NCBI GenBank assembly: GCA_026705925.1
Contig: JAPOZT010000019.1
Coordinates: 49,878-113,877, forward strand
DNA from: Gemmatimonadota bacterium
GTDB taxonomy: Bacteria > JAAXHH01
DNA length: 64,000 nucleotides
Reading direction: 5' to 3'
The translations under genes and the position numbers were made by a program. The notes under the pieces were generated by a model that made no database searches, was not told where the DNA came from, and saw nothing but the letters and a program-made list of their open reading frames with translations. Of this stretch, positions 19,698-63,896 are shown in pieces (the stretch's first letter is position 1; each line of letters begins with the position of its first letter).

Positions 19698-19735
19698 CGG
19701 GCGGACCACGTCCACAAACCTGCAAGGGAGGATCC

Positions 19736-20815
19736 ATGATCGGTCAGACCAGCCTGGCGTCGCTGCCCACGCTGCGCACGTACAGGAGCCACCGGATTTC
19801 GAGCTGGGACACGACGGGCGCCAACACCGACGCCTGGCGGATCGAGGCCGGTGAGAAACGCGTCATCGGGCAAATCGACGGCCCCGGCTGCATCAAGCAT
19901 ATCTGGATGACGCTCGGGATCCCGTCCGAGGACTACTGCCGGCGCATCGTGCTGCGCATGTACTGGGACGGCTGCGCGGAGCCGAGCGTGGAGTGTCCCA
20001 TCGGCGATTTCTTCGGCCTGGGTCACGGCATGCGCAAGGATTTCATCACCGCCCCACTGCAGATGAGCCCCCAGGACGGCAAGGGTTTCAATGCGTGGTG
20101 GCCCATGCCATTCAGTGAAAAGGCCGTGGTGGAAGTGGAAAACCAGGGCGACGAAGGCTACTTCCACTACTTCTACATCGACTGCGAAGCCTATCCCACC
20201 GTTGACGCGGTGGCGGATCAGGCGTATCTTCACGTACAGTGGCGCCGGGAAGCCGACACGAAGGGCTGGGCCTTCGAGGAAGGGCTCAAACCCGAAGAAT
20301 ACCGGAACGACCCGCGCTGGCTGAATACGAGCGACCGGGACAACTACGTCATCTGCGACGTCGAGGGTGACGGCATCTACTGCGGCGCCCACCTGGACAT
20401 CGACTGCTTTCAGCGGAACCCGAACGACTGGTACGGCGAAGGCGACGACATGATGTTCATCGACGGCGAGGCGTGGCCCCCGTCGCTGCACGGCACGGGT
20501 ACCGAGGACTGGTATCACGGCGCGTACGGCCCTACGACGGAGTTTCAGGCGCCGTACCACGGGATCATTCTCTACAGCGGCAACCCGGACTGGAGATTCA
20601 AGGGAAAGAACACCGTCTACCGGTATCACATTGAAGATCCAATCCGGTTTGAGAAGAGTTTCCGCATGTCCATCGAGCACGGCCATGCGAACAAGCTGAG
20701 CAACGATTACTCCAGCACGGCCTACTACTATCTTTCCGAGCCACGGCGCGGCGGTCCGGCCCTGCTGCCGGTGGAAGAACGCCTACCGCGGCCGAACGAG
20801 GAGCGGTACGGCTGA
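19736..20815 (+). CDS. DUF2961-like protein, copy 2 (tandem paralog, about 85% aa identity to copy 1)
   Basis: Same N-terminus MIGQTSLASLP and same RBS context (gaRggatccATG) as copy 1. The ORF-track long ORF 18977-20815 is an out-of-frame run-through of copy 1. Confidence 0.5.
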   Translation: MIGQTSLASLPTLRTYRSHRISSWDTTGANTDAWRIEAGEKRVIGQIDGPGCIKHIWMTLGIPSEDYCRRIVLRMYWDGCAEPSVECPIGDFFGLGHGMRKDFITAPLQMSPQDGKGFNAWWPMPFSEKAVVEVENQGDEGYFHYFYIDCEAYPTVDAVADQAYLHVQWRREADTKGWAFEEGLKPEEYRNDPRWLNTSDRDNYVICDVEGDGIYCGAHLDIDCFQRNPNDWYGEGDDMMFIDGEAWPPSLHGTGTEDWYHGAYGPTTEFQAPYHGIILYSGNPDWRFKGKNTVYRYHIEDPIRFEKSFRMSIEHGHANKLSNDYSSTAYYYLSEPRRGGPALLPVEERLPRPNEERYG

Positions 20816-27369: not shown

Positions 27370-29772
27370 TTGCTGAAACACTACTTCACGATCAGTGCGA
27401 GGCATCTGCTCAGGCACAAACCCTATGCCGCGCTCAATATCCTTAACCTGGCCGTCGGCATGGCCTGTGCGGTCCTCATCGGCCTGTATATACAAGACGA
27501 ACGGGCCTATGACCGGTACCATGCGAACGCGGAACGGATCTACCGCATCGTGAACGGGACCAATGCGAAGACGACCCCCGCCCTCGGTCCCGCCATCCAT
27601 GAACTCCTTCCTGAAGTCCAGTCATACGCCCGCATAAGTCCGCCCTTCGGAGGGTGGATCATACGCTATGAAGACCAATCGTACTTCGAAGACCGCGTGT
27701 TCTGGGCGGATCCCGATCTCTTCGAGGTTTTCTCCTTTCCACTGGTGCGGGGCAATCCCGCACAGGCGCTGCAGGATCCGGGGACGGTCGTCATCACCGA
27801 GTCCATGGCGCGCAAGTACTTCGGAAGCGCCGACCCCCTCGGCGAGACGGTATCGCTGGATACGTATCCCTTCACCGTCACCGGGGTGATGCGGGATATG
27901 CCCGAGCACTCGCATTTCCAGGCTGACTTTTTCCTCGGGATCGAGGGGTCGCTCGGTATCCTGGGAGATGATTACCTGGAGCAGTGGGATTGGCCTTCGT
28001 TTTATACCTACCTTTTGCTGTCACCGGATGTAGATCCCGTCGACTTCGCGCGGAAAATGCCGGATGTGCTCGAAGAAAGGTTTGGCGCCCGGTGGGAAGC
28101 CGAGAACATCACGATGGACCTCCGGCTGCAGCCGCTGACCGACATCTACCTTTACTCCCAACTCGAGAACGAGGCCGGCGAGAACGGCAACGGCACGTAC
28201 CTGCTGCTCCTCGGCGCCCTGGCCGTCGTCATCGTCCTGCTGGCCTGTTTCAACTTCATGAACATGGCGACCGCCCGCTCTCTCACGCGTAACCGCGAGG
28301 TCGCGCTTCGGAAGGCCTTCGGCGCGAACCGGGGTCAGCTGGTCCGCCAGTTCATGGGCGAATCCTTCGGCATCACCTGCGTCGCCATCGTGACCGCGCT
28401 GATCCTCGTCGCGCTCAGTCTGCCGTTCTTCCAGGACCTCACCGGAAAGACCATCGCGCTCGACATCTTTAGGTCCTGGCAGTTCTGGATGGGCATCGCC
28501 GCGGTAACCCTCCTGGTGGGGTTCGTTTCCGGCAGCTATCCCGCGTTTTTCACGGCGGCCTTCACGCCGGCAGCACACCTGAAGGGCAGGACCGGAACCG
28601 GCGCAACCCGCCACCTGGTACGCAGGCTGCTGGTCATGGGCCAGTGCATGATGGTAATCCTGCTGCTCGGCAGCACCTGGGTATTCACCGCGCAGCTGGA
28701 CTACATACAGGCCAAACGGCTGGGCCTGCAGCCGGAACGAGTGCTCGTCGGACCCTCCAGTTTCCCGGCCTTCGTGGATCAGTATCCGGTTTTCAGGGAA
28801 ACACTCGAGCAGTATCCCCGGATCGAAAGCGTCGGTACCACCCTGATGCTGCCTGGCCGCACGGGGCGCAAGGGTTTGCTCGCCACGACGGGGACGCGGC
28901 GGACCGACCGGCCGCAGACGGAAGCGCAGAACCTGCTCGACTGGGCGATCACCGACGATTTCGTCGAAGTATTCGGGATGGAGCTGCTGGCCGGCCGGAG
29001 TCTTTCCAGTTCGCGTCTGGCGGATCGGAGGGAAGCCGTGATGATCAACGAAACCGCCATGCGGCAGCTGGGATGGAACGCGCCCGAAGAGGCCATCGAT
29101 CAGGAGGTCCTGATCCACATCGGCCATCCCTGGGTACACGATCGCCGGATCATCGGCGTGATCGCGGATTTCCACATGCGGTCGCTGCACCATCGCATCG
29201 AGCCGATGATCATCCGGCATTGGCCCAGGGAGAACTTGCCCTTCTACGCGATCCGCATCCGATCCGATGACGTGACCGGCACGGTCTCATGGATCCAGGA
29301 AACCTGGAAGCGACAGATGCCGGACGTTCCCATGGTGTATTCGTTTCTCGATGAGGATTACGGGCGGCTCTACGCGGCCGAGGCGACGCTCCGCGAGGTC
29401 TTCGGCGTTTTCTCGTCCGTGGCGGTCTTCATGGCCTGCGCCGGGCTGTTCGGCCTGGCCTCATTCATGTCGGCGCGGCGTACGAGGGAAGTAGGCATGC
29501 GGAGGATTCTCGGGGCCTCAGTCGTCCAGACGGCGGGTCTGCTTCTGAGGGAATTCGTCTACCTGGTCCTGATCGCTACGGTACTGGCCGCGCCCATCGC
29601 CTACTTCGCCATGCGGCAGTGGCTTCAACTGTTCTCCTACCGTGCGGACGTCGGTCCCGTAGCCTTCTTCGCCGCTGGCGCGGTCGTCCTGGTCATCGCC
29701 CTGATGACGGTGAGTCTCCGTGTCGTCGGCGTGGCCCGGGCGAACCCGGTGGACACGCTGAGGTATGAGTAG
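27370..29772 (+). CDS. FtsX-family (MacB-type, two FtsX domains) ABC transporter permease, 800 aa
   Basis: N-terminal TM, large periplasmic domain, four TM, repeated. Characteristic FtsX loop motifs. No ATPase gene adjacent. Confidence 0.75.
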   Translation: MLKHYFTISARHLLRHKPYAALNILNLAVGMACAVLIGLYIQDERAYDRYHANAERIYRIVNGTNAKTTPALGPAIHELLPEVQSYARISPPFGGWIIRYEDQSYFEDRVFWADPDLFEVFSFPLVRGNPAQALQDPGTVVITESMARKYFGSADPLGETVSLDTYPFTVTGVMRDMPEHSHFQADFFLGIEGSLGILGDDYLEQWDWPSFYTYLLLSPDVDPVDFARKMPDVLEERFGARWEAENITMDLRLQPLTDIYLYSQLENEAGENGNGTYLLLLGALAVVIVLLACFNFMNMATARSLTRNREVALRKAFGANRGQLVRQFMGESFGITCVAIVTALILVALSLPFFQDLTGKTIALDIFRSWQFWMGIAAVTLLVGFVSGSYPAFFTAAFTPAAHLKGRTGTGATRHLVRRLLVMGQCMMVILLLGSTWVFTAQLDYIQAKRLGLQPERVLVGPSSFPAFVDQYPVFRETLEQYPRIESVGTTLMLPGRTGRKGLLATTGTRRTDRPQTEAQNLLDWAITDDFVEVFGMELLAGRSLSSSRLADRREAVMINETAMRQLGWNAPEEAIDQEVLIHIGHPWVHDRRIIGVIADFHMRSLHHRIEPMIIRHWPRENLPFYAIRIRSDDVTGTVSWIQETWKRQMPDVPMVYSFLDEDYGRLYAAEATLREVFGVFSSVAVFMACAGLFGLASFMSARRTREVGMRRILGASVVQTAGLLLREFVYLVLIATVLAAPIAYFAMRQWLQLFSYRADVGPVAFFAAGAVVLVIALMTVSLRVVGVARANPVDTLRYE

Positions 29773-31711: not shown

Positions 31712-34114
31712 TCACCCGGTACGCAACGCGTCGACTGGATTGGCCGTGGCGGCCTTCAACGCGTGGTATCCCACCGTCAACCAGGTAACAAGTAGCGTTG
31801 CAAGGCCGGCAAACACGAAAACCCACAGGCTCAGTTCGATACGATAGGGAAAGTTTTCCAGCCACGTCTGCACACCGAAGAAACCTGCCGGAGCGCCGAT
31901 CACGAATGCGAGCAGGACCAGCTTAGTGTAGTCCCCGGACAACAGCAGTATGACGTTCGAAATCGTAGCGCCGAGGACCTTGCGTACGCCGATTTCCCTG
32001 GTCCGCTGCTCCGCCATGTAGGCTGCCAGTCCCAGAAGTCCCAGGCACGCGATCAGAATGGAAAGCACCGCGCCGGCGACGAAGACGGATCCCAGCCTTT
32101 GCTCGGCATCGTACTGTCGCTCGAGTTCCTGGTCCAGGAAGTAGAAATCCATGCCGGGATGGCTTTGATACGTTGTCCGCCACCGGTCCTGTAGGATTTC
32201 AAGTCCGCGGGGCAGGTCCTGTCCCTGCAGCCTGACCACCATAAACCTGCCTTCTGGCCAGTACATTACGATCAAGGGCTCAATGCGTTGATGCAGCGAT
32301 TGGTGGTGATAATCCGCCATCAGGCCGATGACGTTCCTGGATGGAGCAGTATCTGGTGCGCCCGGCTGCCTGAAGGTCTTTCCGATCGGGTCTTTCCATC
32401 CAAAAGTGCGTGCGGCAGTTTCGTTGATCACGACGGCGTCGTTGTCGGAGGTGAAAGTCCGCGAAAACGAACGGCCGGACTTGATCTCGATGTCCAGTGT
32501 TTCCAGGAAGTCGAAGTCCGCCCAGATCGTGGCGACCAAAGGCGTCTGATCCTCCGGGAATCCTTCTGGTTGAATCGAATTGAGCGAGGGTGCCGTCCCG
32601 GGTACGCTGGCCGATGAACTCACGTTTAAGATTTCCGGATACTGCATGACCTCGCGCTTGAATACCGGATAACCAAGCACAGCCTCTCTATCGGGAAGTC
32701 GTATGACTACCACGTGTTCTTTATCGAATCCCAGCTTCTTGTTCCGCATGTACTCCACCTGCCCGAGCACGGTAGCCGTTCCGATAATCACGACAATCGA
32801 GACGATGAACTGGAAGGTGATCAGCGCTATTCGCAGAAAGGACAGGGAGCCCCCCGCTTTCAACTCGCCACTCAGTACGGCAACCGGCCTGAAGGACGAA
32901 AGGACGAGTGCGGGATATCCGCCGGCAGCGATTCCCGTAAAAAGGATTATCGCCCCGAGGGTCGGCACCAGCCATGTTGACTGATAGTCCATTTCCAGCG
33001 CTTTACCGGACAACTGGTTGAACTGCGGCAGGAGCAGGTGGACCAGTGCGAGTGCGACGATCAGCGCGATCAGGGAAAAGAAGACCGACTCTCCGATAAA
33101 CTGCTTGATCAGCTGGACCCGGTGGGCACCCAGTACTTTCCGGATGCCGACCTCCTGCGCCCTTCTGACGGCACGGGCGGTGGCCAGGTTCATGAAGTTG
33201 ACGCAGGCAATCAGCAAGATGAAAGCGGCCAGGGAGGAGAAGATGTAAACATACCGTACGTCGCTGTTCGCTTCGATCTCGAGCTTCAGATGGGAGTGCA
33301 GATGTATGTCGGTGAGCGACTGCAGGAACGGTCTCATTTCCATGCCCAGTGCCTTCAGTTGCTCACCCACATGTCTATCCAGAAACTGAGGGAGTTTCTT
33401 CTCCAGATCTTCGGCGGCACGTCCTTCCTTGAGCAGAAGATACGTGTACATGGAGGAGTTCAGGTTCCTCATCGTGGTCGGCTCGAAGTATATGCCATCC
33501 ACCGCCATGGTGGCGAAGGAGGCCAGGAAGTCGGCGTGGAAATGCGAATTTGCAGGCATGTCCCGCATGATCCCCGTAACCGTAAAGTTATACTGGTCGT
33601 CAGCAGCGATGACTTTTCCAATCGGATTTTCATCTCCGAAATACTTCTCCACCATCGCTTCCGAAACCACCACGGCGTGCGGTTCCGCCAGGGCTGTCTT
33701 TGGATTTCCCTGAACAAGGGGGATAGTGAAAATGTCAAAGACCGACGAATCCGCGAAGACGAAATACTTCTCATAGGACCGATTATCGCCGTAGCGAACG
33801 AGCCAACCGGTGTTCGGCGGCTTTATCCGCGTGTAGTGTTCGATTTCAGGGAATTCCGACGCCAGTACAGGGGCCCAGGACGGAGGCGACATCGCCCATT
33901 CATCCGGTTTGCCACCCGCCATCTCGGAGATCGCCAGGCGATAAATCCGTTCCTTCTTCTCGTGGTGCTGGTCGTAGCTGAGTTCGTCCTGCACATAGAG
34001 CATGATCAACACGCAGGAGGCTATACCGATAGCCAATCCAAGCACGTTGATCGCCGAATAGCCTCTGTACTGGAGCAGATGCCTTATGGCGGTGTTCAGG
34101 TAGTTTCTGAACAT
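31712..34114 (-). CDS. FtsX-family (MacB-type) ABC transporter permease, 800 aa, paralog of 27370-29772
   Basis: Same architecture and N-terminus (MFRNYLNTAIRHLLQYRGYSAIN versus MLKHYFTISARHLLRHKPYAALN). Confidence 0.75.
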   Translation of the reverse strand: MFRNYLNTAIRHLLQYRGYSAINVLGLAIGIASCVLIMLYVQDELSYDQHHEKKERIYRLAISEMAGGKPDEWAMSPPSWAPVLASEFPEIEHYTRIKPPNTGWLVRYGDNRSYEKYFVFADSSVFDIFTIPLVQGNPKTALAEPHAVVVSEAMVEKYFGDENPIGKVIAADDQYNFTVTGIMRDMPANSHFHADFLASFATMAVDGIYFEPTTMRNLNSSMYTYLLLKEGRAAEDLEKKLPQFLDRHVGEQLKALGMEMRPFLQSLTDIHLHSHLKLEIEANSDVRYVYIFSSLAAFILLIACVNFMNLATARAVRRAQEVGIRKVLGAHRVQLIKQFIGESVFFSLIALIVALALVHLLLPQFNQLSGKALEMDYQSTWLVPTLGAIILFTGIAAGGYPALVLSSFRPVAVLSGELKAGGSLSFLRIALITFQFIVSIVVIIGTATVLGQVEYMRNKKLGFDKEHVVVIRLPDREAVLGYPVFKREVMQYPEILNVSSSASVPGTAPSLNSIQPEGFPEDQTPLVATIWADFDFLETLDIEIKSGRSFSRTFTSDNDAVVINETAARTFGWKDPIGKTFRQPGAPDTAPSRNVIGLMADYHHQSLHQRIEPLIVMYWPEGRFMVVRLQGQDLPRGLEILQDRWRTTYQSHPGMDFYFLDQELERQYDAEQRLGSVFVAGAVLSILIACLGLLGLAAYMAEQRTREIGVRKVLGATISNVILLLSGDYTKLVLLAFVIGAPAGFFGVQTWLENFPYRIELSLWVFVFAGLATLLVTWLTVGYHALKAATANPVDALRTG

Positions 34115-42672: not shown

Positions 42673-43002
42673 GTCCGGGTCTCCAGCGACACGGTCCGGG
42701 ACCATGCGACACGGTCCGGGTCTGGGCCCGCACCCAGGGCAATTCGAGTTGCCGCGCCGGATTCAATTCCGCGAAAGTAAGATTCAGGATTCGTCTGCGA
42801 CCTTGCAACTTGTCATTAACTTAATCGATCGACATATTAGGTACAGGATGAATCCGCCAGCATTTTCGTCAACGTCTCAGACAACGTCTCTGTCAACGTC
42901 TACACCTGTGTCTGCGACTGCCATTTCAGCCGGCGGTTGCGAGACCGTATCAACCGGAAGCAGGTGGCCCCGGACCGCTTCCCTTATCGCCAGAATCTAA
43001 CC

Positions 43003-44508
43003 ATGCCCACTTCCACGCCCAACATCATCTACATCCTCGCCGACGACATGGGATACGGCGACATGGGGTGCAACAACCCCGATTCGAAGATCCCGACGCC
43101 CCACCTGGATTTGCTCGCCGGGGAAGGCATGCGCTTCACCGACGCCCACGCCCCTTCGAGCGTGTGCACGCCGAGCCGGTACGCCCTGCTGACGGGCCGC
43201 TACTGCTGGCGCACGCCCCTGAAGAACAGCGTCCTCTGGCCCTACGACCCGCCCCTGATCGAGCCCGGACGCCTTACCGCGGCGGAATTGCTTCGCCAGC
43301 AGGGCTACCGCACCGCGTGCATCGGAAAATGGCACCTCGGCTGGGAATGGGCCACCCTGGACGGGAAGCCCGCCCACGAGGGCACGGCGGTGGGCAGGCT
43401 GGACCGGGAACTGAGGGAGGAACGGGAACGGCACGTCGATTTCAGCACGCCCATGCGCGGGGGGCCGGTCGACTGCGGATTCGACACGTACTTCGGCGTG
43501 GATGTGCCGAATTTCCCGCCCTACACCTGGTTCGAGCAGGACCGGCTCGCCGGGGAGCCGACCGTACCCAAGCCCGACGACATGTTCGGATGGCCCGGCA
43601 TCATGAAACCCGGCTGGTCGCTCGAGGAGATGATCCCCGCGTTCATACGCCGCGTGGTCAACTACATCGAATCGTCCGGACCCGATCCGTTCTTCCTCTA
43701 CTTCCCGCTCACTTCGCCCCACACGCCCATCGTGCCCAACGCGCCGTTCATCGGAAGGAGCGGCTCGGGGCTCTATGGCGATTTTGTGTGTGAAGTGGAC
43801 TGGGTGGTGGGCCAGATCATGGCGGCCCTCGAGCGCCGCGGCATCGCCGACGACACCTTGCTGATCTTCACGAGCGACAACGGACCGGAGTGCGCCCCGG
43901 CCGCGGACGGCGGGAGCTACGAACACGCACGAATTCATGGCCACTACAGCATGGGGAACCTGCGCGGCGTCAAGCGCGACGTGTGGGAGGGCGGGCACCG
44001 CGTCCCCTTCCTCGCTCGGTGGCCGGGCGTTGTGCCCGCCGGCGCGGTCTGCGACCAGCTCACCACCCTGGGCGACTTCATGGCGACCTGCGCCGACCTG
44101 ACCGGCTTCGATCTCGGGGAGGACGAAGGCGAGGACAGCGTGAGCATGCTGCCGCTGTTGCAGGGGGAGACCGGTGATCCGGTGCGAGACTTCGCCGTGC
44201 ACCACAGTTGCCACGGGACCTTCGCCATCCGCAGAGGCAAATGGGTCTTCATCGATGCCCCGAACGGAGACGACAACCGCGAGCCCGACTGGTTCAAGGA
44301 AGAGCGTGGCTATACCGCCCACGATTTCCCCGGCGAGCTCTTCGATCTCGATAAGGACCTATCGGAACGGGTAAACCGATACGGCGACCATCCGGAACTC
44401 GTCCGGGAGATGTCACGGATGCTGGAACAGGTGAAGTCGGAAGACATCGCGGTAAGGCCTTCGCCCGCGGTACCTTTCTGTAATGATGACCGTGAACGGA
44501 AAGCATGA
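43003..44508 (+). CDS. arylsulfatase-family sulfatase (formylglycine-dependent)
   Basis: ILADDMGYGD, C-T-P-S-R formylglycine motif (SVCTPSRYALLTGR), GKWHLG. No obvious signal peptide. Confidence 0.85.
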   Translation: MPTSTPNIIYILADDMGYGDMGCNNPDSKIPTPHLDLLAGEGMRFTDAHAPSSVCTPSRYALLTGRYCWRTPLKNSVLWPYDPPLIEPGRLTAAELLRQQGYRTACIGKWHLGWEWATLDGKPAHEGTAVGRLDRELREERERHVDFSTPMRGGPVDCGFDTYFGVDVPNFPPYTWFEQDRLAGEPTVPKPDDMFGWPGIMKPGWSLEEMIPAFIRRVVNYIESSGPDPFFLYFPLTSPHTPIVPNAPFIGRSGSGLYGDFVCEVDWVVGQIMAALERRGIADDTLLIFTSDNGPECAPAADGGSYEHARIHGHYSMGNLRGVKRDVWEGGHRVPFLARWPGVVPAGAVCDQLTTLGDFMATCADLTGFDLGEDEGEDSVSMLPLLQGETGDPVRDFAVHHSCHGTFAIRRGKWVFIDAPNGDDNREPDWFKEERGYTAHDFPGELFDLDKDLSERVNRYGDHPELVREMSRMLEQVKSEDIAVRPSPAVPFCNDDRERKA

Positions 44509-56470: not shown

Positions 56471-56609
56471 CTTATTGCCACGGGTACTCATCTACTTAAC
56501 GCTGGCATAACGTGTCCGAATCTCGCATAATACCATCTTGAGACATCTATACGGTTGAGGACATGACTTCAGGTTGATCTTGCGGGCAATACCGGGAGAG
56601 GAACAGGCT

Positions 56610-57500
56610 ATGGCGATGGTCGACATGAAGCAGATCCACGCGCTGGAAGATGCGACGGACCTGCTGAGACGCCCCGACGAACTGCGGCAACGCGCCGCGG
56701 AGCACGGCTGCCTGTTCTTTCGGCGACTGCTCGATCCGGCGCGCGTGATGGAGGTCCGGCGCCAGGTGCTCGGTGTGTGCCGGGAACACGGGTGGCTTGC
56801 CCCCGGTTCGGATCTCATGGACGGCATCGCGAATCCCGAAATCAGCGTGTTCGAAGGCGACGACCCGCGCTGGACTGCTTTCTACGACGATGTCCAGCGG
56901 ATCCGCGACTTCCACGCACTGGCCCTCGACCCCGCAATCATCCACATGCTCGAAGTGCTGTTCGGAGAACCCGTGCTTGCCCACAGCCGGAACATCTGCC
57001 GGCTCGTATTCCCGGACACGAACACCCACTCGACCCCGCCGCACCAGGACAACTATTTCATCGGCGGTTCGGACGAGACGTGGACGGGCTGGATTCCGCT
57101 GGGAGACTGTCCGGAGGAACTCGGCGGACTCGCCGTCAACCGGAGATCCCACCGTAGCGGCATGCTGGAAACGACCGAGGGCGTGGGGCCGGGCGGGCGG
57201 CAGGTTCCCGTAGAGGACGATTCCGCCTGGGTCGGCGGCGACTACGCCTGCGGCGACGTGATTATCCTGCACAGCCTGACGATTCACCAGGGCCGGGACA
57301 ACATGACCACGGATCGTCTCCGGCTGTCCTCCGACTATCGGTACCAGCCGAGAAGCCACCCCGTCCGGGAGGATTCTCTCCAGCCCCACATGAACTGGTT
57401 GACATGGGACCAAGTTTACGAAAACTGGGAGGAGGACGATCCGGTGAGGTACTATTGGCGGGATTGGCCCCTGGACGTGGTCAAGCGGGAGCCGCAGTAG
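56610..57500 (+). CDS. phytanoyl-CoA dioxygenase family, copy 5
   Basis: HTPPHQD...H pattern. Confidence 0.6.
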   Translation: MAMVDMKQIHALEDATDLLRRPDELRQRAAEHGCLFFRRLLDPARVMEVRRQVLGVCREHGWLAPGSDLMDGIANPEISVFEGDDPRWTAFYDDVQRIRDFHALALDPAIIHMLEVLFGEPVLAHSRNICRLVFPDTNTHSTPPHQDNYFIGGSDETWTGWIPLGDCPEELGGLAVNRRSHRSGMLETTEGVGPGGRQVPVEDDSAWVGGDYACGDVIILHSLTIHQGRDNMTTDRLRLSSDYRYQPRSHPVREDSLQPHMNWLTWDQVYENWEEDDPVRYYWRDWPLDVVKREPQ

Positions 57501-57617
57501 GCGGCCCGCGCCTGGACTTGCCCGCGCCTGGACAGGCCCTTGGACACGGTCCGCCTACGGCCACGCCGGCGCCTGGGCCTGTATCTGGACACTGCCCGCA
57601 CCAGGACACCCCCGGAT

Positions 57618-58733
57618 ATGCCCAATCCAGTTATCAAAACCGCCCAGCACCTGGTGCGCATGTTCCTCCCCAAACCGATGGCAGCGCTGGTCGATATGTC
57701 GGGGCGCTACGTGATCGTGACCGGGGCGTCACCCGGTTCGCTCGGGTACGAAACCGCGCGGGTCCTCGCGGGCTGGGGGGCCAAGGTCGTGGCGACCCGG
57801 GTCCGGCACGTAGCCCTGATGGAAGCGGCGCTGAAAGACGACCTTCGCAGGCGCGGCGACGACGCGGACAACCTCACGGCACACGCACTGGACCTCTCCG
57901 ATGCGCACAGCGTCAACGCCTTCGCCGCCTGGTACCGCGACCGACACCAGGGCAAGCTCCATGTGCTGATCAACAACGCGGGCATCCACAGGAAGACTTT
58001 GGCCCCGCGCAGCGAAGTGCCTTTGACCGAAGATGGCTTCGAAGTGCACTGGCGGACCAACTATCTCGGCGTCTTTCACCTGACCCGGGTGCTGCTGCCC
58101 CTCCTTCAACAATCCGGTATCGAAAGCGGCGACGCACGGGTCGTCAACGTGTCCTCCGGCCTGCACGACAGGGTAGGGAACGCGGACCTGTTCGACGAGG
58201 GGCCGAACCCCGACGGGTCGGGCCGCCACCAGCCGAACCGCTACCGGCCGCGCGGCGATTCAACACGCCGTAACTTGCCGAACGGCAACTTGCCGAACGG
58301 CAACTTGCCGCAACGTGATTTGTCACCCCGCGATAGGCCGCGCTACCACTCCTGGGACGCCTATGGGAAGTCGAAACTGGCGATGAATCACCTGGCCTTT
58401 GAAATCGAAAGGCGATTCGCCGAATCCCACAACCTGCACGGGATGGCCGTACACCCGGGCGTCGTCATGACCAACCTGACCCTGCCGCAAGCGTTTGAAG
58501 GCTGGATTGGTAAGGCACTCCATCGTATCAGTTCCGCGCTGGCCTCGCTGGTCCTGCTGTCCCCGAATGCCGGGGCGCAGACCATCGTGATGTGCGCGAG
58601 CCAGCGTCCCCTGCAAGGGGGAAGATACTATGAGCGCTGCGACATCGCCGAACCGAGCACGGACAGCCTCGACACCGACGCCTCGAAACGCCTGTGGGAA
58701 CAGTCGGAACAGTGGGTCGGGACGCTTGTGTAA
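57618..58733 (+). CDS. SDR family oxidoreductase (retinol-dehydrogenase-like) with low-complexity NLPNGNLPNGNLP insertion
   Basis: VTGASPGSLG, NNAG, YGKSK. 15-nt tandem repeat x2.6 at 58271-58313 encodes the insertion. Confidence 0.7.
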   Translation: MPNPVIKTAQHLVRMFLPKPMAALVDMSGRYVIVTGASPGSLGYETARVLAGWGAKVVATRVRHVALMEAALKDDLRRRGDDADNLTAHALDLSDAHSVNAFAAWYRDRHQGKLHVLINNAGIHRKTLAPRSEVPLTEDGFEVHWRTNYLGVFHLTRVLLPLLQQSGIESGDARVVNVSSGLHDRVGNADLFDEGPNPDGSGRHQPNRYRPRGDSTRRNLPNGNLPNGNLPQRDLSPRDRPRYHSWDAYGKSKLAMNHLAFEIERRFAESHNLHGMAVHPGVVMTNLTLPQAFEGWIGKALHRISSALASLVLLSPNAGAQTIVMCASQRPLQGGRYYERCDIAEPSTDSLDTDASKRLWEQSEQWVGTLV

Positions 58734-58855
58734 GGACGTGGTGCTCGCGCGGCCAACCATGCGGCACACAACGCAAACCGCGCTGAACATGTAGACAATT
58801 CGTAATCAACCCGGGTGAATCAACCCACGGGAATCAAGCTACAGGACAGCCCACT

Positions 58856-59626
58856 TTGGACAACGAACTATTAAAACGGGGGTTCTCACCCCGGCCGCTG
58901 ACGTCCGCGCAACGCAAGGCGCTGGACACCGATGGCTTCATCGTACTGGAGGAGATCATCTCGCCGGACTGGCTCGTCGGGCTGCGCCAGGCTTTCGATG
59001 AGATTCATGACCGCGAAGGCGAAAAGGCCGGAGAGGAGGTCGCCCAGATGGAAGGGGTACGCCGGCTTGCCGATCTGATTAACAAGGGATCGGTTTTCGA
59101 CGCGGTCTACCTGCAGCCCGAGCTCTTGACGGCGGTCTTCCATGTCCTGCAGCGGCCGTTCAAGCTGCACTCGCTCAACGGGCACGACCCGCTGCCGGGA
59201 AGCGGGCTGCAGATCCTGCACGCCGATTGGGGACAACCGACCGCACCCGGCGGACCCTACCACGTCGTCAACTCCATGTGGATGCTCGACGATTTCACCC
59301 GGGTCAACGGTGCGACGCGCTGCGTACCCGGCAGCCACCGAATATCCGGAAGGATTACCGACCATGTAGCTGATCGCCTGGCGGACCACCCCGGACAGGT
59401 CTACCTGACGGGCCGCGCCGGTTCGGTGGCCGTATTCAACGGCAGTCTCTGGCACAGTTCTTACATCAACCGCAGCGACGCCCCCCGGCGAGCCCTGCAC
59501 TGCGCCTTCATCGCCCGTGAACACCCCCAGCAGACGAATCAGCGCGAGTACCTCCGGCCCGAGACGGCTCTACGCCTGTCCCCGCTGGCGCGCTACATCC
59601 TGGACGTCGAGGACGACCCGCGGTAA
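58856..59626 (+). CDS. phytanoyl-CoA dioxygenase family, copy 6
   Basis: LHADW...PGSH...WHSS pattern. Confidence 0.6.
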   Translation: MDNELLKRGFSPRPLTSAQRKALDTDGFIVLEEIISPDWLVGLRQAFDEIHDREGEKAGEEVAQMEGVRRLADLINKGSVFDAVYLQPELLTAVFHVLQRPFKLHSLNGHDPLPGSGLQILHADWGQPTAPGGPYHVVNSMWMLDDFTRVNGATRCVPGSHRISGRITDHVADRLADHPGQVYLTGRAGSVAVFNGSLWHSSYINRSDAPRRALHCAFIAREHPQQTNQREYLRPETALRLSPLARYILDVEDDPR

Positions 59627-59683: not shown

Positions 59684-61111
59684 CTATCCAAACAGCTCCT
59701 GCACCAGTACCCGCGCCCGATCGATCACGGTTTCGAGGCAGCCGGGTGCCAGCTTTGCCCAGTAGGTGACGTCTTCGTTGGCCTCGTGCCCACCGCGGGG
59801 ATAAGCCTCCCGCGTAGGCAGGTAGCCGACATAGTGCGACGTGAGATGTGCCGGAAACAGATATGAAGCCGGCGAATTCAGTTTGAGCGACAGTTGCCCT
59901 TCCACGAAAGGTTCCCCGGGAAGGCCAATAATACAGAGGTCGCCCACGCGAAATGCCTGGATCTCATAGCTGAACGCGCCGTCCCGCTGCCTGCACAGCT
60001 CGACGCTGCGGGTAGACGCCGCCCGGAACCAGCGTGGGTCTACCTGCCCGTCCGCTTCCCGCGGTGGCTGGGGATGCTCGGCGAGGATCGCATCGACTTC
60101 GCGCAGACGCTCTTCCGGAATCTCGCGAAAAGGCAGGCCGATCGTTTCGATCCGGGTATCCAGAGCGGCTTCGCCCGAAAAGTTGCCGGCGTACGTCATG
60201 TCGTGCACGATACGCTCGCTCAAACCAGACAGTTCGCGGCCCATTCGAAGGTGGTCCGGCCGGAAATCCGGGTCGTAAGGATGCCAGGGGTTGATGTTGC
60301 CGCAACACCCGTTGACGACCAGCGGCACGGCATCGGGACCGAAGGCCTGCTGCATCTCCCGGGACCAGGCGCCGGGCCAATCCGCCGACGCGGCCAGGAA
60401 GGTCTCGCTGTTACCGTACGCATTGACCGGGTGGCACGTGTAGTGCAGCAGAAAGGCGAGCGGCTTACCTGTCATGTCCTGGATACAGCAAACCCCCACT
60501 TCCGGATCGATAGGTCCTTCCAGGTAACACACCTCCGAGATACCGAATGGCTGCTGCTCCCGACCCTGCGGCCTGGGCATGAATAAGGTGCCGTCCCGGC
60601 GTATGCCGCGCCGGTTGAAAGCCAGGTCGCCCATCACGCCGCGACCCAGACCGATGCGCGCGGGCTCAAGCCTGCCCGCCGCTTCGATCGCGGCCTCCAC
60701 GGCAGCGGCTGCGGCCCGGTCACCATAGGCGCGCTCGGCGCCGCGCAGATACTCCGTCTCCTCGGTGGTCTCCAGCGGAAAATCCGGATCCAGCATGAAG
60801 TAGCCGAGGCTCGGGGCGGAATGGGTCTGCGTCGCCTGGACCATGATCGCGTCCCGTTCAATGCCCGTCTGCTCGTGGATCTCCGCGCGGATCCGGTCCG
60901 TGTAGTCGCCGGTAACGATGATGAGATCCAGGATCACCAGGCAGACGCGGCGCCCAGCCACCTCAAAGACGATGGCCTTGGCAAAGAGCGGATCCAGGAC
61001 GGTACTGGCCGGACGGTGGTCACCGGCTCCGCTGCCCCCCAGATGTGTCCCAACCGAAGGGGAGATGTCGATCATCGCCGCACCGGCGCTCAGCTGGTTT
61101 GACGCGTTCAT
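59684..61111 (-). CDS. hypothetical protein, possibly neutral/alkaline ceramidase-like family
   Basis: 475-aa soluble protein. Weak recollection of ceramidase-like N-domain. Low certainty. Confidence 0.4.
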   Translation of the reverse strand: MNASNQLSAGAAMIDISPSVGTHLGGSGAGDHRPASTVLDPLFAKAIVFEVAGRRVCLVILDLIIVTGDYTDRIRAEIHEQTGIERDAIMVQATQTHSAPSLGYFMLDPDFPLETTEETEYLRGAERAYGDRAAAAAVEAAIEAAGRLEPARIGLGRGVMGDLAFNRRGIRRDGTLFMPRPQGREQQPFGISEVCYLEGPIDPEVGVCCIQDMTGKPLAFLLHYTCHPVNAYGNSETFLAASADWPGAWSREMQQAFGPDAVPLVVNGCCGNINPWHPYDPDFRPDHLRMGRELSGLSERIVHDMTYAGNFSGEAALDTRIETIGLPFREIPEERLREVDAILAEHPQPPREADGQVDPRWFRAASTRSVELCRQRDGAFSYEIQAFRVGDLCIIGLPGEPFVEGQLSLKLNSPASYLFPAHLTSHYVGYLPTREAYPRGGHEANEDVTYWAKLAPGCLETVIDRARVLVQELFG

Positions 61112-61201: not shown

Positions 61202-62341
61202 ATGATCGAATGGCTGGGTATCGAACACCTTTTCGAACTGTCCCGGACGGAAGCGATCTGGGGATTCTTCACCCCGCTGATCGTCTACGCCGCGTTTTTT
61301 GTGGTCCAACTCATGCTTCCCGGCAGGTGGGTCCCCGGCTACGTCGTCAACCCGGCGACCGGCGAACCCCGAAACTACCGCCTGAACGGCATGCTCGTGT
61401 TCTTGATCGCGATCGTCGTGTGGGCGCTCGAACTCACCGGGCTTCCCCACGACTGGTTCTACCGGTCCTCGGTCTATGCCGTGGCCGGCGGAACGGTCTT
61501 CAGCATAATCTTCACCCTGATCGCCGTGTTTACCCAACCGGAAGGCAAGGTGAAAAACAGGTTCCTGGCGTGGTGGTTCGGCCGTGCGCAGGAGATTTCG
61601 TTCTTCAACGAACGCATCGACGTGAAGATGTACATGTATGTCGTCGGGGGAACGATGCTGTCGCTCAACGCCCTTTCCGGCGCGGTGTATCACTACGAAC
61701 TCTTCGGCGAGAAAGCCAATCCGGGCGTCATCCTCTACGCGGCGTTCTTCACCTTCTACATCATGGACTACATGGTCTTCGAGCGCGTACAGCTCTATAC
61801 CTACGACCTGATCCACGAGAATGTCGGCTTCAAGCTGATCTGGGGCTGCCTCGTGGTCTACGGCTGGTTGTTCATCCTGCCGCTGTGGGGCATGGCCGCG
61901 TACCCGAACCCCGGGTTCTCACCCGCCTGGACGAATGTCTGGCTCATCGGCGCGTCCGCGCTGTTCCTCTTCGGCTGGGGCATCTCGCGCGGCGCCAACC
62001 TGCAGAAATACACCTTCAAGCGATGGCCGGACCGCAAGTTCCTCGGCCTCATCGCGCCGAAGTACATCCAGGCCGGCGAACGCAGGATCCTGTGCAGCGG
62101 CCTGTGGGGCGTCGCCCGTCACCTCAACTACATGGGCGAGGGGTTCCTTGCCCTGTCCATCGCCCTGATATTCGGTTGCTTCACCAACTTCTGGGCGTGG
62201 ACCTATTTCATCTTCATCGTGTCCCTGTTCGTCTACCGGCAGTGGGACGACGACCGTCACTGCGCCGAGAAGTACGGCGCCGAAAATTGGGCGGAATACA
62301 AGGAGCGGGTGAAGTACCGGATCGTGCCGGGGATCTACTAA
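61202..62341 (+). CDS. sterol-reductase family polytopic membrane protein (ERG4/ERG24/DHCR7-like C-terminal signature)
   Basis: LWGVARHLNYMGE...YRQWDDDRHCAEKYGAENWAEYKERVKYRIVPGIY closely resembles the conserved C-terminus of eukaryotic sterol C14/C7/C24 reductases. Confidence 0.6.
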   Translation: MIEWLGIEHLFELSRTEAIWGFFTPLIVYAAFFVVQLMLPGRWVPGYVVNPATGEPRNYRLNGMLVFLIAIVVWALELTGLPHDWFYRSSVYAVAGGTVFSIIFTLIAVFTQPEGKVKNRFLAWWFGRAQEISFFNERIDVKMYMYVVGGTMLSLNALSGAVYHYELFGEKANPGVILYAAFFTFYIMDYMVFERVQLYTYDLIHENVGFKLIWGCLVVYGWLFILPLWGMAAYPNPGFSPAWTNVWLIGASALFLFGWGISRGANLQKYTFKRWPDRKFLGLIAPKYIQAGERRILCSGLWGVARHLNYMGEGFLALSIALIFGCFTNFWAWTYFIFIVSLFVYRQWDDDRHCAEKYGAENWAEYKERVKYRIVPGIY

Positions 62342-62398
62342 GGGAGGGTCGAAGCATTTGTATTCCAGGCACTTCTCGTTCCGACAGCCATCAAGGAG

Positions 62399-63115
62399 AT
62401 GCCGCCAATGGCCTCCAGCAGCACACAGGAATTTCTGAGGTTACTGCACTCCGTGAAGGACAAATACAATGGTCCTGAAGAACTTGATATTCGAAAAGGT
62501 GAGCTGAAAAACGGTATCCGGGAGGCGGAACAGGCGTTCGTGGGAAAGTTCCCGAAAAACAGTCGCCTTCTGGACATTGGTTGCGCGTCGGGACGATTGT
62601 GCTTCGCACTTGCGCGGCAGGGATACGACGTCACCGGTATCGATGTCGCCGAAAATCAGATTGAACAGGCAAGACGTACCGCGGAAGCGGAAGGCGTCGA
62701 CGTGACGTTCCTACAGTACGAGATGCCGAATCTGCCTTTTCCCGACGCCTCATTTGCCGCTGCATTTATGGGAAACGTTTACTGCTATGTCCCGTACCGC
62801 GCGTCACGTATCGCTTTTCTGGAAGAGATCGCGCGGGTGCTATATCCGAATGGCGAGGTGTTTCTTTCGCAGACTGTCCTGGATTCCGTACTGGAGAGTT
62901 ACGATGACCTCTGCGATGACAACCATCGTAAGTTCGCTCCCGATTACGAGACCCTGGAGGAGGGAGACGGATTCGTGCTGGGAGCGCCCCAGTTTCTGCA
63001 CTTCTTCTTCGCCGATGATCTCATGGCAGAACTGGAAACATCTTCATTTCATGTGGCGAGTCCAGAATTGAAGAAGTCAGATTTCAAGTGTGTTTTACGT
63101 AAGCGCAATATATGA
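62399..63115 (+). CDS. class I SAM-dependent methyltransferase
   Basis: LLDIGCASGR motif I, GYDVTGIDV motif II. Lower GC than flanks. Confidence 0.7.
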   Translation: MPPMASSSTQEFLRLLHSVKDKYNGPEELDIRKGELKNGIREAEQAFVGKFPKNSRLLDIGCASGRLCFALARQGYDVTGIDVAENQIEQARRTAEAEGVDVTFLQYEMPNLPFPDASFAAAFMGNVYCYVPYRASRIAFLEEIARVLYPNGEVFLSQTVLDSVLESYDDLCDDNHRKFAPDYETLEEGDGFVLGAPQFLHFFFADDLMAELETSSFHVASPELKKSDFKCVLRKRNI

Positions 63116-63146: not shown

Positions 63147-63884
63147 TCACACCTTCCTCGCCACGTGTCGATCTTCGTATATCCCTTTAAGGAACTTCTC
63201 CGGATTGAGTTCTTCAGGCATATAATGCCAGGCCGTGCTGTAACGGGTGCGGGTGCTGTGGTTGTCGTAGGCGCCGTGCAGGAGATTGGCGGAAAACAGC
63301 ACGACCGTGCCCGCGGGTATAACCAGGTCCACGGCCTGCGCTTCATCGACCTTTGTCCAGCTGCCATGCCTGCTTAGCTCACTGCGGTGCTCGACGATCT
63401 CACCGATCCGGTGGCTACCTGGCACCACCCGCAGGCAACCGTTCTCCACGTCCGCATCTTCCAGGTAGATCCCGCAACTGACGATGCGATCCGTATCGGT
63501 CCCGAAATAGAAATTGTCCTGGTGCCAGCCCGTCGACGTGCCTCCATCGGGCAATTTCGGAAAGAACTTGGTGCCGAACACGTCGAGATTCTCGCCGATC
63601 AACTCAGCCACGCGGTCTACAATCGCCGGTTCCCGCGCCAGTTCCAGCACGCGGTCGTCGACCACGCATACGCCCTGGACTTTGTGCAGCAGACCCGCCC
63701 TGGGTTCGCCGCCTTCGTCCAGCTCGAGTGACCAGTGCGGGGTCTGCTCATTCAACCGGCTGCCCTGTGTGACAAGTTCATCGAATACCTGCTTGTACCA
63801 GGCCAGTCGCTCGCTCTGTATCAAGGATTCAAAAACGAGAAACCCGTCTTCCCGGTACTGTATTACTTGTTCGTCGGTTAACAT
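63147..63884 (-). CDS. phytanoyl-CoA dioxygenase family, copy 7
   Basis: WHQDNFYF...PGSH...LLHGAYDN pattern. Confidence 0.65.
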   Translation of the reverse strand: MLTDEQVIQYREDGFLVFESLIQSERLAWYKQVFDELVTQGSRLNEQTPHWSLELDEGGEPRAGLLHKVQGVCVVDDRVLELAREPAIVDRVAELIGENLDVFGTKFFPKLPDGGTSTGWHQDNFYFGTDTDRIVSCGIYLEDADVENGCLRVVPGSHRIGEIVEHRSELSRHGSWTKVDEAQAVDLVIPAGTVVLFSANLLHGAYDNHSTRTRYSTAWHYMPEELNPEKFLKGIYEDRHVARKV

Positions 63885-63896
63885 GAGCACCTCTTT

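What the first reader, a model, noticed from the sequence alone, without database searches (positions are those of the whole stretch)
61202..63115. Eukaryote-like sterol-reductase family membrane protein next to a SAM methyltransferase
The C-terminus of 61202-62341 (LNYMGE...YRQWDDDRHCAEKYGAENWAEYKERVKYRIVPGIY) matches the conserved signature of ERG4/ERG24/DHCR7 sterol reductases. These are rare in bacteria and usually tied to sterol or hopanoid-like lipid modification. It is followed by a lower-GC class I SAM methyltransferase and preceded by a possibly ceramidase-like protein. Together they suggest an unusual lipid-tailoring locus.
Basis: partly seen in the sequence, partly recalled or inferred. 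Interest (0 to 1): 0.5.

Follow-up and report, generated by a model that had tools for sequence, protein, structure and literature searches.

The report
Orphan sterol-reductase-like gene of sponge symbionts
The gene encodes a genuine sterol-reductase-family membrane enzyme, but it belongs to a previously unseparated, highly conserved stand-alone clade passed horizontally among at least eleven named lineages of mostly sponge- and coral-associated bacteria, it is not the C-14 reductase of their sterol gene clusters, and its substrate is unknown.

Summary
ORF 61202-62341 (+, 379 aa) is an ERG4/ERG24-family protein: Pfam 135.9 bits against 32.5 for DUF1295, and its only structural match is the delta14-sterol reductase 4QUV. 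The NADPH pocket and the proposed catalytic Tyr are invariant. A generic class I methyltransferase follows it, and a protein with a neutral-ceramidase fold precedes it.

The "lipid-tailoring locus" reading is not supported. These neighbours accompany the gene only in the window's own lineage plus one other locus, and the methyltransferase is missing from 7 of 12 loci in that lineage.

The gene belongs to one tight clade (75-97% identity, nearly all 379 aa). It is found in at least 559 species-representative genomes, and the best 80 hits cover at least 11 named lineages. All 80 are MAGs; those whose origin I could check come from sponges. Low cross-phylum dS (0.6-1.0), omega of about 0.16 and polyphyletic phyla indicate horizontal transfer under strong purifying selection.

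The clade is only 29-32% identical to the reductase of the published sponge-symbiont sterol cluster (reductase-CYP51-cyclase). Both paralogs coexist on one Nitrospirales chromosome, and four of seven Ircinia MAGs that carry the gene lack the cluster.

Most likely it is an NADPH-dependent sterol-type double-bond reductase of unknown specificity. Earlier work lumped it under K00222.

The parts
61202..62341 (+). Stand-alone ERG4/ERG24-fold membrane reductase, 379 aa, about 9 predicted TM helices. It is the core and only conserved part of the feature.
   Evidence: Pfam PF01222 at 135.9 bits. 4QUV by sequence at E 3.8e-36 and by fold at TM-score 0.68. NADPH-pocket residues R263, N266, K269, K273, W302, R306, H307, N309, Y310, R346, D350, K357, Y358 and the Tyr186/Glu313 pair are invariant in the clade. 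Median omega is 0.157.
62399..63115 (+). Adjacent generic class I SAM methyltransferase, 238 aa, lower GC. It is an accessory neighbour and not a fixed partner.
   Evidence: Methyltransf_25/11 domains only, no Sterol_MT_C domain. Best PDB relatives are uncharacterised or generic methyltransferases. Absent from 7 of 12 loci in the window's own lineage, displaced in L006 and L007, and absent next to the reductase in other phyla except L055. GC is 0.50-0.56.
59684..61111 (-). Divergently transcribed neighbour with a neutral-ceramidase fold, 475 aa, catalytic domain only. It is a lineage-specific neighbour.
   Evidence: AF2 pLDDT 80.4, pTM 0.87. Foldseek matches only 2ZWS, 2ZXC and 4WGK (probability 1.0, TM-score 0.64 over the query). 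A family profile hits 2ZWS at E 3e-6; the ceramidase HTHSGP motif reads QTHSAP here. It lies next to the reductase only in L004-L015 and L020.

Best explanation
The gene encodes an active, NADPH-dependent, integral-membrane carbon-carbon double-bond reductase with the ERG4/ERG24 (MaSR1) fold.

Inferred mechanism, by analogy with MaSR1 and ERG24: NADPH binds in the conserved cytoplasm-facing pocket of the C-terminal half. A lipid substrate enters from the bilayer. Tyr186, positioned by Glu313, protonates the double bond, and hydride is transferred from the nicotinamide C4.

It is not the C-14 reductase of bacterial sterol synthesis. It belongs to a separate, single-gene clade that has spread horizontally among bacteria of many phyla, most of them sponge or coral associates where the origin is known, and it is held under strong purifying selection.

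Because it travels alone and occurs both with and without a sterol-synthesis cluster, its substrate is most likely a sterol or sterol-like triterpenoid that is generally available in the holobiont, either host sterols or symbiont-made intermediates. It would reduce a bond other than delta14, for example a side-chain delta24(28)/delta24(25) bond or another nuclear bond.

Shown here: family, fold, intact cofactor and catalytic residues, paralogy, distribution, HGT and selection. Inferred: enzymatic activity, sterol substrate and which bond is reduced.
For: Family and fold.

Active site: every MaSR1 NADPH-pocket position is invariant in the clade. The proposed proton-donor Tyr (MaSR1 Y241 = Y186) is kept, as it is in MaSR1 and the sterol-cluster reductase, whereas 70 of 77 other family representatives have Phe. 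MaSR1 H260 (= H205) is also kept (residue roles from PMC12489058 and PMC4951196).

Distinct paralog: it is 29% identical to the reductase of the published reductase-CYP51-cyclase cluster and 34% to MaSR1, while those two are 39% identical to each other and group together in the tree. One 2.13-Mb Nitrospirales chromosome carries both a full sterol cluster with its own 366-aa reductase at about 0.75 Mb and the 379-aa gene at about 1.29 Mb. The two are 32% identical.

Stand-alone: no conserved neighbour and no cyclase, P450 or SMT within 6 kb in 80 loci.

Independence from the cluster: of seven Ircinia MAGs carrying the gene, three have the cluster and four (88-94% complete) do not.

HGT and selection: 75-97% identity across at least 11 named lineages. 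The whole family collapses to one 50%-identity representative, with the next relative at 49%. Phyla are polyphyletic in the gene tree. Cross-phylum dS is 0.58-1.0 and median omega 0.157. Gene GC tracks flank GC, r = 0.83.

Niche: the SB06xx and jk18x/p16x MAG series come from sponges. K00222 is enriched in sponge MAGs in all comparisons.
Against: There is no biochemical evidence for any member of the clade.

The near-universal NPR of sterol-reductase signature 1 is replaced by E-[ILM]-S in this clade only, and strict signature 2 is not matched.

By overall score, its nearest non-clade relatives are uncharacterised eukaryotic and bacterial proteins, not proven sterol reductases, so a non-sterol substrate is possible.

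Whether sterol genes are absent from the window's own genome could not be tested.

Sponge or coral restriction is verified only for some MAG series. The environmental origin of most loci is inferred from isolate labels or unknown.

The AF2 model has only moderate confidence (pLDDT 66.6).
Confidence: 0.6

Rival explanations
1. It is an ordinary delta14-sterol reductase (EC 1.3.1.70, KEGG K00222) that works after CYP51 in de novo bacterial sterol synthesis, with the pathway genes simply scattered in the genome.
For: JGI and KEGG name clade members delta14-sterol reductase. The best solved relative is a delta14 reductase. The catalytic Tyr and NADPH pocket are conserved. Kelly et al. note that steroid genes are often scattered in sponge MAGs.
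Against: It is only 29-34% identical to MaSR1 and to the cluster reductase, which group together apart from it. It coexists with a dedicated cluster reductase on the same chromosome. It is present in four of seven Ircinia MAGs scored as lacking the cluster. It is never next to CYP51 or a cyclase in 80 loci. The signature-1 NPR motif is lost.
Confidence: 0.12
2. It is a reductase, or another enzyme of the steroid-dehydrogenase/ICMT clan, that acts on a non-sterol lipid, such as another isoprenoid or a sponge-specific terpenoid or lipid that symbionts must modify or detoxify.
For: There is a secondary DUF1295 hit. The nearest relatives are uncharacterised proteins, most of which lack the catalytic Tyr. 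There is no genomic link to sterol genes. It occurs in MAGs without the sterol cluster. Signature 1 is lost.
Against: Unlike its nearest relatives, the clade keeps the Tyr186, Asp189, Asp202, His205 constellation shared with MaSR1. From my memory of their sequences, DHCR7 and TM7SF2 share it too. The whole-length match is to ERG4_ERG24 and not DUF1295. The next-nearest bacterial relative with informative context (P0131, 42%) sits in a steroid-type cluster with a Rieske/KshA oxygenase, SDRs and a sulfotransferase.
Confidence: 0.2
3. One reading: the reductase, the methyltransferase and the ceramidase-like protein form one lipid-tailoring operon.
For: The three genes are adjacent in the window and in L004, L008 and L012. 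The ceramidase-fold gene is also next to the reductase in L020, in a different orientation. The ceramidase fold is confirmed.
Against: The methyltransferase is absent from 7 of 12 loci of the same lineage and displaced in 2. Neither neighbour accompanies the reductase in the other phyla. The ceramidase-like gene is on the opposite strand. The methyltransferase is generic and has deviant GC.
Confidence: 0.05

Closest known systems
MaSR1, delta14-sterol reductase of Methylomicrobium alcaliphilum (PDB 4QUV), and eukaryotic ERG24/TM7SF2/LBR
   Same: Same fold (TM-score 0.68) and same Pfam family. The NADPH-pocket residues are conserved, as are the proposed proton-donor Tyr and the D-x-x-H-E motif.
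   Different: Only 34% identity. About 48 residues shorter at the N-terminus, so one TM helix fewer. Asp363 is Glu. The signature-1 NPR motif is replaced. It branches apart from MaSR1 and the cluster reductases. It is not linked to CYP51 or a cyclase.
TM7SF2/ERG24 gene of the sponge-symbiont 'cluster of steroid genes' (Kelly et al. 2022, PMC9531527; msbC of the Melophlus msb cluster, PMC7074536)
   Same: Same superfamily, same hosts (multi-phylum sponge symbionts), also spread by HGT and under purifying selection, and given the same KEGG label K00222.
   Different: A different paralog, 29-32% identical. The cluster reductase is 343-366 aa and always sits next to CYP51 and a squalene-epoxidase/cyclase fusion, whereas this one always stands alone. 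Both occur in one Nitrospirales chromosome.
Coxiella burnetii CBU1206/Stmp1 and the sterol reductases of Legionella and Chlamydiae (PMC8787468, PMC2667531, PMC9666466)
   Same: A lone ERG4/ERG24-family reductase acquired horizontally by host-associated bacteria that do not need a full sterol pathway. These are thought to modify host sterols.
   Different: Those are intracellular pathogens or endosymbionts with eukaryote-derived genes. Here the carriers are sponge and coral symbiont MAGs, the clade is bacterial and deep-branching, and it is shared by many phyla.
Uncharacterised short ERG4/ERG24-like proteins of protists and bacteria (e.g. Monosiga A9VAA6, P0123, P0131)
   Same: They are the nearest relatives by score (33-49% identity), of similar length, with Glu in place of MaSR1 Asp363.
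   Different: Most have Phe where this clade and the proven reductases have the catalytic Tyr, and they keep the NPR motif that this clade has lost.

Membership tests
ERG4/ERG24 sterol reductase superfamily (Pfam PF01222) | Whole-protein HMM score above the curated cut-off | tested here: met
   135.9 bits against a cut-off of 27; residues 14-379 on model positions 65-432
ERG4/ERG24 sterol reductase superfamily (Pfam PF01222) | MaSR1-type multi-pass membrane fold | tested here: met
   Foldseek against the PDB finds only 4QUV, TM-score 0.68, probability 1.0. The model's pLDDT is 66.6, with about 9 long helices against 10 TMs in MaSR1.
ERG4/ERG24 sterol reductase superfamily (Pfam PF01222) | NADPH-pocket residues (MaSR1 R313, N316, K319, R323, W352, R356, H357, N359, Y360, R395, D399, K406, Y407) | tested here: met
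   All are conserved and invariant in the clade, with R323 as Lys, as in most family members
ERG4/ERG24 sterol reductase superfamily (Pfam PF01222) | Proposed catalytic pair, Tyr241 and Asp363 in MaSR1 numbering | tested here: met
   Tyr186 is invariant. Asp is replaced by an invariant Glu313, as in the sterol-cluster reductases.
ERG4/ERG24 sterol reductase superfamily (Pfam PF01222) | PROSITE sterol-reductase signatures 1 and 2 (patterns recalled from memory; MaSR1 matches both) | tested here: not met
   0 of 81 clade members match either pattern. The NPR of signature 1 is E-[ILM]-S. Signature 2 reads FVYRQWDDDRHCAEKYG. The strict patterns also fail on the sterol-cluster reductases, so they are only weakly discriminating.
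Delta14-sterol reductase (EC 1.3.1.70; K00222; ERG24/TM7SF2/MaSR1 orthologs) | Orthology with proven C-14 reductases | tested here: not met
   It forms a separate deep branch, 29-34% identical. MaSR1 and the cluster reductases group together elsewhere. A true cluster ortholog coexists with it in the same chromosome.
Delta14-sterol reductase (EC 1.3.1.70; K00222; ERG24/TM7SF2/MaSR1 orthologs) | Genomic or pathway coupling to CYP51 and oxidosqualene cyclase | tested here: not met
   There is no cyclase within 6 kb in 80 loci or in the 64-kb window. P450-type heme motifs occur in only two of the 80 genome loci, L010 and L018. Four of seven Ircinia MAGs with the gene lack the cluster.
Delta14-sterol reductase (EC 1.3.1.70; K00222; ERG24/TM7SF2/MaSR1 orthologs) | Reduction of the delta14 bond of delta8,14 sterols | not testable with these tools
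   Requires an enzyme assay or erg24 complementation
DUF1295 (Pfam PF06966) | Best-scoring family for the protein | tested here: not met
   32.5 bits over residues 209-369 only, against 135.9 bits full-length for ERG4_ERG24. It is a related-family overlap on the C-terminal cofactor-binding half.
Sterol C-24 methyltransferase (SMT/ERG6), for the neighbour 62399-63115 | Sterol_MT_C domain and the SMT motif YExGWG | tested here: not met
   It has only generic methyltransferase domains and is 238 aa long. There is no YExGWG motif anywhere in the window or loci; the motif is recalled from memory and had no positive control.
Neutral/alkaline ceramidase, for the neighbour 59684-61111 | Catalytic-domain fold | tested here: met
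   Foldseek finds only 2ZWS, 2ZXC and 4WGK, probability 1.0, TM-score 0.64 over the query. A family profile hits 2ZWS at E 3e-6.
Neutral/alkaline ceramidase, for the neighbour 59684-61111 | Pfam cut-off, full architecture and intact HxH metal/catalytic motif | tested here: not met
   23.6 bits against a cut-off of 32.1. It is 475 aa against 630-690 aa, so the C-terminal domain is missing. HTHSGP reads QTHSAP, with Gln invariant. The ligand roles are recalled from memory.

The most novel reading that the evidence does not exclude
The 379-aa clade is a shared symbiosis gene of sponge and coral microbiomes. It would be a sterol reductase of new specificity that lets bacteria of many phyla remodel holobiont sterols. 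One candidate role is the missing side-chain (delta24(28)/delta25/delta24) reductase that would turn the unsaturated 24-alkyl products of symbiont or host sterol methyltransferases into saturated 24-alkyl sterols such as 24-isopropylcholesterol. Another is a reductase that converts host sterols for use in, or tolerance by, bacterial membranes.
Probability: 0.2. Interest if true: 0.75.

Novelty: new variant of a known kind. Interest (0 to 1): 0.5.

Why it matters
Sponge symbiont genomes are known to be enriched in "delta14-sterol reductase" (K00222), and this has been read as evidence of widespread bacterial sterol synthesis. This analysis shows that the label covers two different genes: the true cluster reductase, and a more conserved orphan paralog that travels alone across phyla and also occurs in MAGs scored as lacking the cluster. 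That changes how K00222 counts should be interpreted.

It also singles out one small gene, easy to express, that selection keeps nearly unchanged in many unrelated symbionts. If it acts on host or symbiont sterols, it bears on two questions: who makes the unusual sterols of sponges, including the 24-isopropylcholestane biomarker debate, and how extracellular symbionts cope with a sterol-rich host.

Tried and rejected
1. Was the gene the reductase of Kelly et al.'s sterol cluster? The similar alignment length (1,167 nt) suggested so. Direct comparison with a cluster sequence from the paper's supplement rejected it: 29% identity.

2. My neighbour clustering might have missed CYP51 or a cyclase. 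I re-checked with Pfam on three cross-phylum loci and with motif scans that had positive controls. Nothing was found.

3. I used contig-length matching to test whether a cyclase co-occurs on complete chromosomes. It gave one true match (2,133,027 bp, Nitrospirales). One near-match (3,724,546 against 3,724,616 bp) proved to be a coincidence, with GC 0.70 against 0.59. Only the best 120 of 1,046 cyclase hits are visible, so this method cannot show absence.

4. Context look-ups for P0161 and P0200 returned contigs of only 1.3-1.4 kb.

5. A literature search for the sample identifiers carrying the exact window protein found nothing. The window's own environment is therefore inferred from its 97%-identical sponge MAG relative.

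6. The strict PROSITE-style regexes also fail on the cluster reductases, so I use them only as descriptive evidence.

7. The promoter and terminator scan between the reductase and the methyltransferase was uninformative.

8. NCBIfam has no model for the protein.
Full report
**Observation.** ORF 61202-62341 (+) is real. It encodes 379 aa and ends with the quoted C-terminus. Pfam places it in ERG4_ERG24 (PF01222) at E 2.3e-39 and 135.9 bits, covering residues 14-379 and model positions 65-432. DUF1295 scores only 32.5 bits, on the C-terminal half. NCBIfam has no model for it. The best solved relative is the delta14-sterol reductase MaSR1 (4QUV, E 3.8e-36). An AlphaFold model (pLDDT 66.6, about nine long helices) matches only 4QUV in the PDB (TM-score 0.68, probability 1.0). 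The downstream ORF 62399-63115 is a generic class I SAM methyltransferase with lower GC. The upstream, oppositely oriented ORF 59684-61111 falls below Pfam's ceramidase cut-off, but its fold is clearly that of a neutral ceramidase.

**Is it a locus?** No. I fetched 80 genome loci that encode close relatives and looked for the window's neighbours. The ceramidase-like gene, three PhyH dioxygenases, an SDR and citrate synthase accompany the reductase only in the window's own lineage (L004-L015). The ceramidase-like gene appears once more, in a Latescibacterota locus in a different orientation. The methyltransferase is missing from 7 of those 12 lineage loci and displaced in 2. All-against-all clustering of flanking ORFs found no neighbour shared across phyla. 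Direct Pfam annotation of flanks in Nitrospirales, Dehalococcoidia and Alphaproteobacteria loci gave unrelated housekeeping genes: a TPR protein, a TonB receptor, GlyQ, an M16 peptidase, GatB and RuvX. A motif scan with working positive controls found no cyclase in any of the 80 loci or the window, and P450-type heme motifs in only two of the 80 genome loci, L010 and L018. The largest window ORFs are not sterol genes either. The conserved unit is the reductase gene alone.

**What the gene belongs to.** The protein database holds more than 1,000 clusters at 90% identity. The best 120 are 76-97% identical and nearly all are exactly 379 aa. At least 559 species-representative genomes encode it. 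The best 80 are all MAGs. They are named as Gemmatimonadota, Latescibacterota, Acidobacteriota, Nitrospirota, Nitrospinota, Thermodesulfobacteriota, Binatia, Dehalococcoidia, Opitutales, Alphaproteobacteria, Acidimicrobiia and UBA8248. The SB06xx series is sponge-associated, and it includes the 97%-identical L004. The jk18x and p16x series are Ircinia sponge MAGs. For the other series the sponge or coral origin rests on my reading of isolate labels. In a search of 1.84 billion 50%-identity representatives, the whole family collapses to one representative. The next full-length relatives are at 49%, 42% and 39%, and the rest at 33-45%.

**Evidence for horizontal transfer and selection.**
- 121 of 379 residues are invariant in the clade and 113 more are at least 90% conserved.
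- Median dN/dS is 0.157.
- Synonymous divergence between phyla is only 0.58-1.0. Descent from a common ancestor of these phyla would have saturated it.
- Phyla are polyphyletic in the gene tree.
- Gene GC tracks flank GC (r = 0.83), and many copies lie on Mb-scale chromosomes. This rules out mis-binning and shows the copies are ameliorated.

Together these indicate several inter-phylum transfers, followed by vertical descent under strong purifying selection.

**Relation to published work.** Kelly et al. (PMC9531527) reported that K00222, "delta14-sterol reductase", is enriched in Ircinia symbiont MAGs. They found it either scattered in the genome or in a conserved reductase-CYP51-lanosterol synthase cluster, the "CSG", present in 10 phyla. 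I translated the reductase from one CSG in their supplementary FASTA. It is 343 aa, 39% identical to MaSR1 and only 29% identical to the window protein. In a tree of family representatives, MaSR1 and the CSG reductase group together, while the window clade plus its 49% relative forms a separate deep branch.

A search with the CSG cyclase domain found a squalene-epoxidase/cyclase fusion on a 2,133,027-bp contig, the same length as the Nitrospirales chromosome OZ243914.1 that carries the 379-aa gene. That contig has a full cluster at about 0.75 Mb: an MMPL/sterol-sensing transporter, a 3-beta-HSD-type SDR, a Rieske oxygenase, a 366-aa ERG4_ERG24, a P450 and the epoxidase-cyclase fusion. The cluster reductase is 78% identical to Kelly's CSG reductase and 32% identical to the 379-aa paralog, which lies at about 1.29 Mb. 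The two paralogs therefore coexist in one genome. Conversely, in Kelly's Table S1, three of seven MAGs carrying the 379-aa gene have a CSG and four do not, at 88-94% completeness. I found no paper that separates the two genes.

**Active site.** Residue roles come from PMC12489058 and PMC4951196. All NADPH-pocket positions of MaSR1 are conserved and invariant in the clade.
- The proposed proton-donor Tyr241 corresponds to invariant Tyr186. MaSR1 and the CSG reductase also have Tyr there, whereas 70 of 77 other representatives have Phe, including the clade's nearest relatives.
- Asp363 is an invariant Glu, as in the CSG reductases.
- The almost universal NPR of sterol-reductase signature 1 is replaced by E-[ILM]-S in this clade only. 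Neither strict PROSITE-type pattern matches.
- The protein lacks about 48 N-terminal residues relative to MaSR1.

This combination supports an active NADPH-dependent reductase with sterol-reductase-type chemistry but a changed, unknown specificity.

**Mechanism and rivals.**
- Best explanation (confidence 0.6): a stand-alone, horizontally spread sterol-type C=C reductase that acts on sterols or sterol-like lipids available in the sponge holobiont, at a bond other than delta14. The closest functional analogy is the lone, horizontally acquired sterol reductases of Coxiella, Legionella and Chlamydiae, which are thought to modify host sterols.
- Ordinary C-14 reductase (0.12). This is contradicted by the paralogy, the coexistence with a cluster reductase and the lack of coupling to CYP51.
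- Non-sterol lipid substrate (0.2). The nearest relatives are uncharacterised and signature 1 is lost.

A speculative but testable reading: the clade supplies the side-chain reductase that would complete saturated 24-alkyl sterols. The symbiont sterol methyltransferases characterised by Brown et al. leave delta24(28), delta25 or delta24 bonds, and the paper's main text has no match for a side-chain reductase. No SMT lies near the gene in any locus, so this reading has no positive support yet.

**The neighbours.** The ceramidase-fold protein belongs to a family whose identities grade from 95% to 57% in Gemmatimonadota, Latescibacterota and Kiritimatiellaeota. This is a more ordinary distribution than that of the reductase. 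It lacks the C-terminal domain of neutral ceramidases, and the first His of their HTHSGP motif is an invariant Gln. The methyltransferase looks like a recently acquired accessory gene.

**Limits.**
- The rest of the window's genome could not be searched for cyclase, CYP51 or SMT.
- Only the best 80 loci and the best 120 database hits were visible.
- Most isolation sources are unverified.
- The trees are neighbour-joining on identity distances.
- No reference ERG4, DHCR7 or Coxiella sequences were available for direct comparison.

Noticed in passing
L001 6345-8477; L030, L031, L034, L035, L038, L051, L064 (about 1-2.5 kb from the reductase): A catalase-peroxidase (KatG-type, PF00141) gene recurs within a few kb of the 379-aa reductase in two unrelated lineages: the window's lineage and Acidobacteriota Bin61-type MAGs. 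This may be co-transfer or coincidence.
   Followed up: no
L085 3485-10133 (contig ERZ18545484:ptg001969l): The 42%-identical relative P0131, from a gammaproteobacterial MAG, sits in a tight same-strand cluster: sulfotransferase, three SDRs, an SRPBCC/polyketide-cyclase-like protein, ERG4_ERG24 and a Rieske/KshA-type oxygenase. It looks like an undescribed steroid-modifying, possibly steroid-sulfating, gene cluster.
   Followed up: no
L086 8001-9065 (contig ERZ26165376:ctg355623_16x_l, 2.0 Mb): A 354-aa, apparently intron-less ERG4/ERG24 homolog (about 35% identical to the window protein) lies among genes with eukaryote- and animal-type domains (zf-C4 nuclear receptor, Sec7, PH, LIM). A eukaryotic genome, possibly a host, therefore encodes a short family member too.
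   Followed up: no
window 56574-59626 and 63147-63890: Three PhyH-family 2-oxoglutarate dioxygenases and an SDR flank the reductase region. They are syntenic throughout the window's lineage. The downstream PhyH is 82-83% identical in two Latescibacterota loci, which is higher than the reductase itself (77%).
   Followed up: partly
window 57540-58733 (+): The SDR carries an internal low-complexity insertion (…NLPNGNLPNGNLPQRDLSPRD…) that interrupts the Rossmann-fold match after about residue 210. Relatives are only 66-89% identical here although the flanking genes are 81-96% identical.
   Followed up: no
window 62399-63115 (+): The methyltransferase has clearly lower GC (0.50-0.56) than its surroundings (0.59-0.67) and a patchy, position-shifting presence among close relatives. 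This suggests a recent insertion.
   Followed up: partly
window 59684-61111 (-): This is a ceramidase-fold family with Gln in place of the first His of the ceramidase HTHSGP motif and no C-terminal domain. It is probably a hydrolase of different specificity or metal dependence.
   Followed up: partly
L091 1-10363 (Nitrospirales chromosome, 744875-762237): This is a complete bacterial sterol cluster with an MMPL/Patched-like protein that has a sterol-sensing domain next to SdmA/SdmB-like genes, the cluster reductase, CYP51 and a squalene-epoxidase/cyclase fusion. A second P450 fused to a GPP34 domain lies nearby.
   Followed up: no
window 42937-44508, 18977-20815, 27370-29772, 31712-34114: The window also encodes a sulfatase, a DUF2961 protein and two MacB/FtsX-type ABC permeases. 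From what I recall of sponge-symbiont genomes, this gene content fits a host-associated heterotroph.
   Followed up: no
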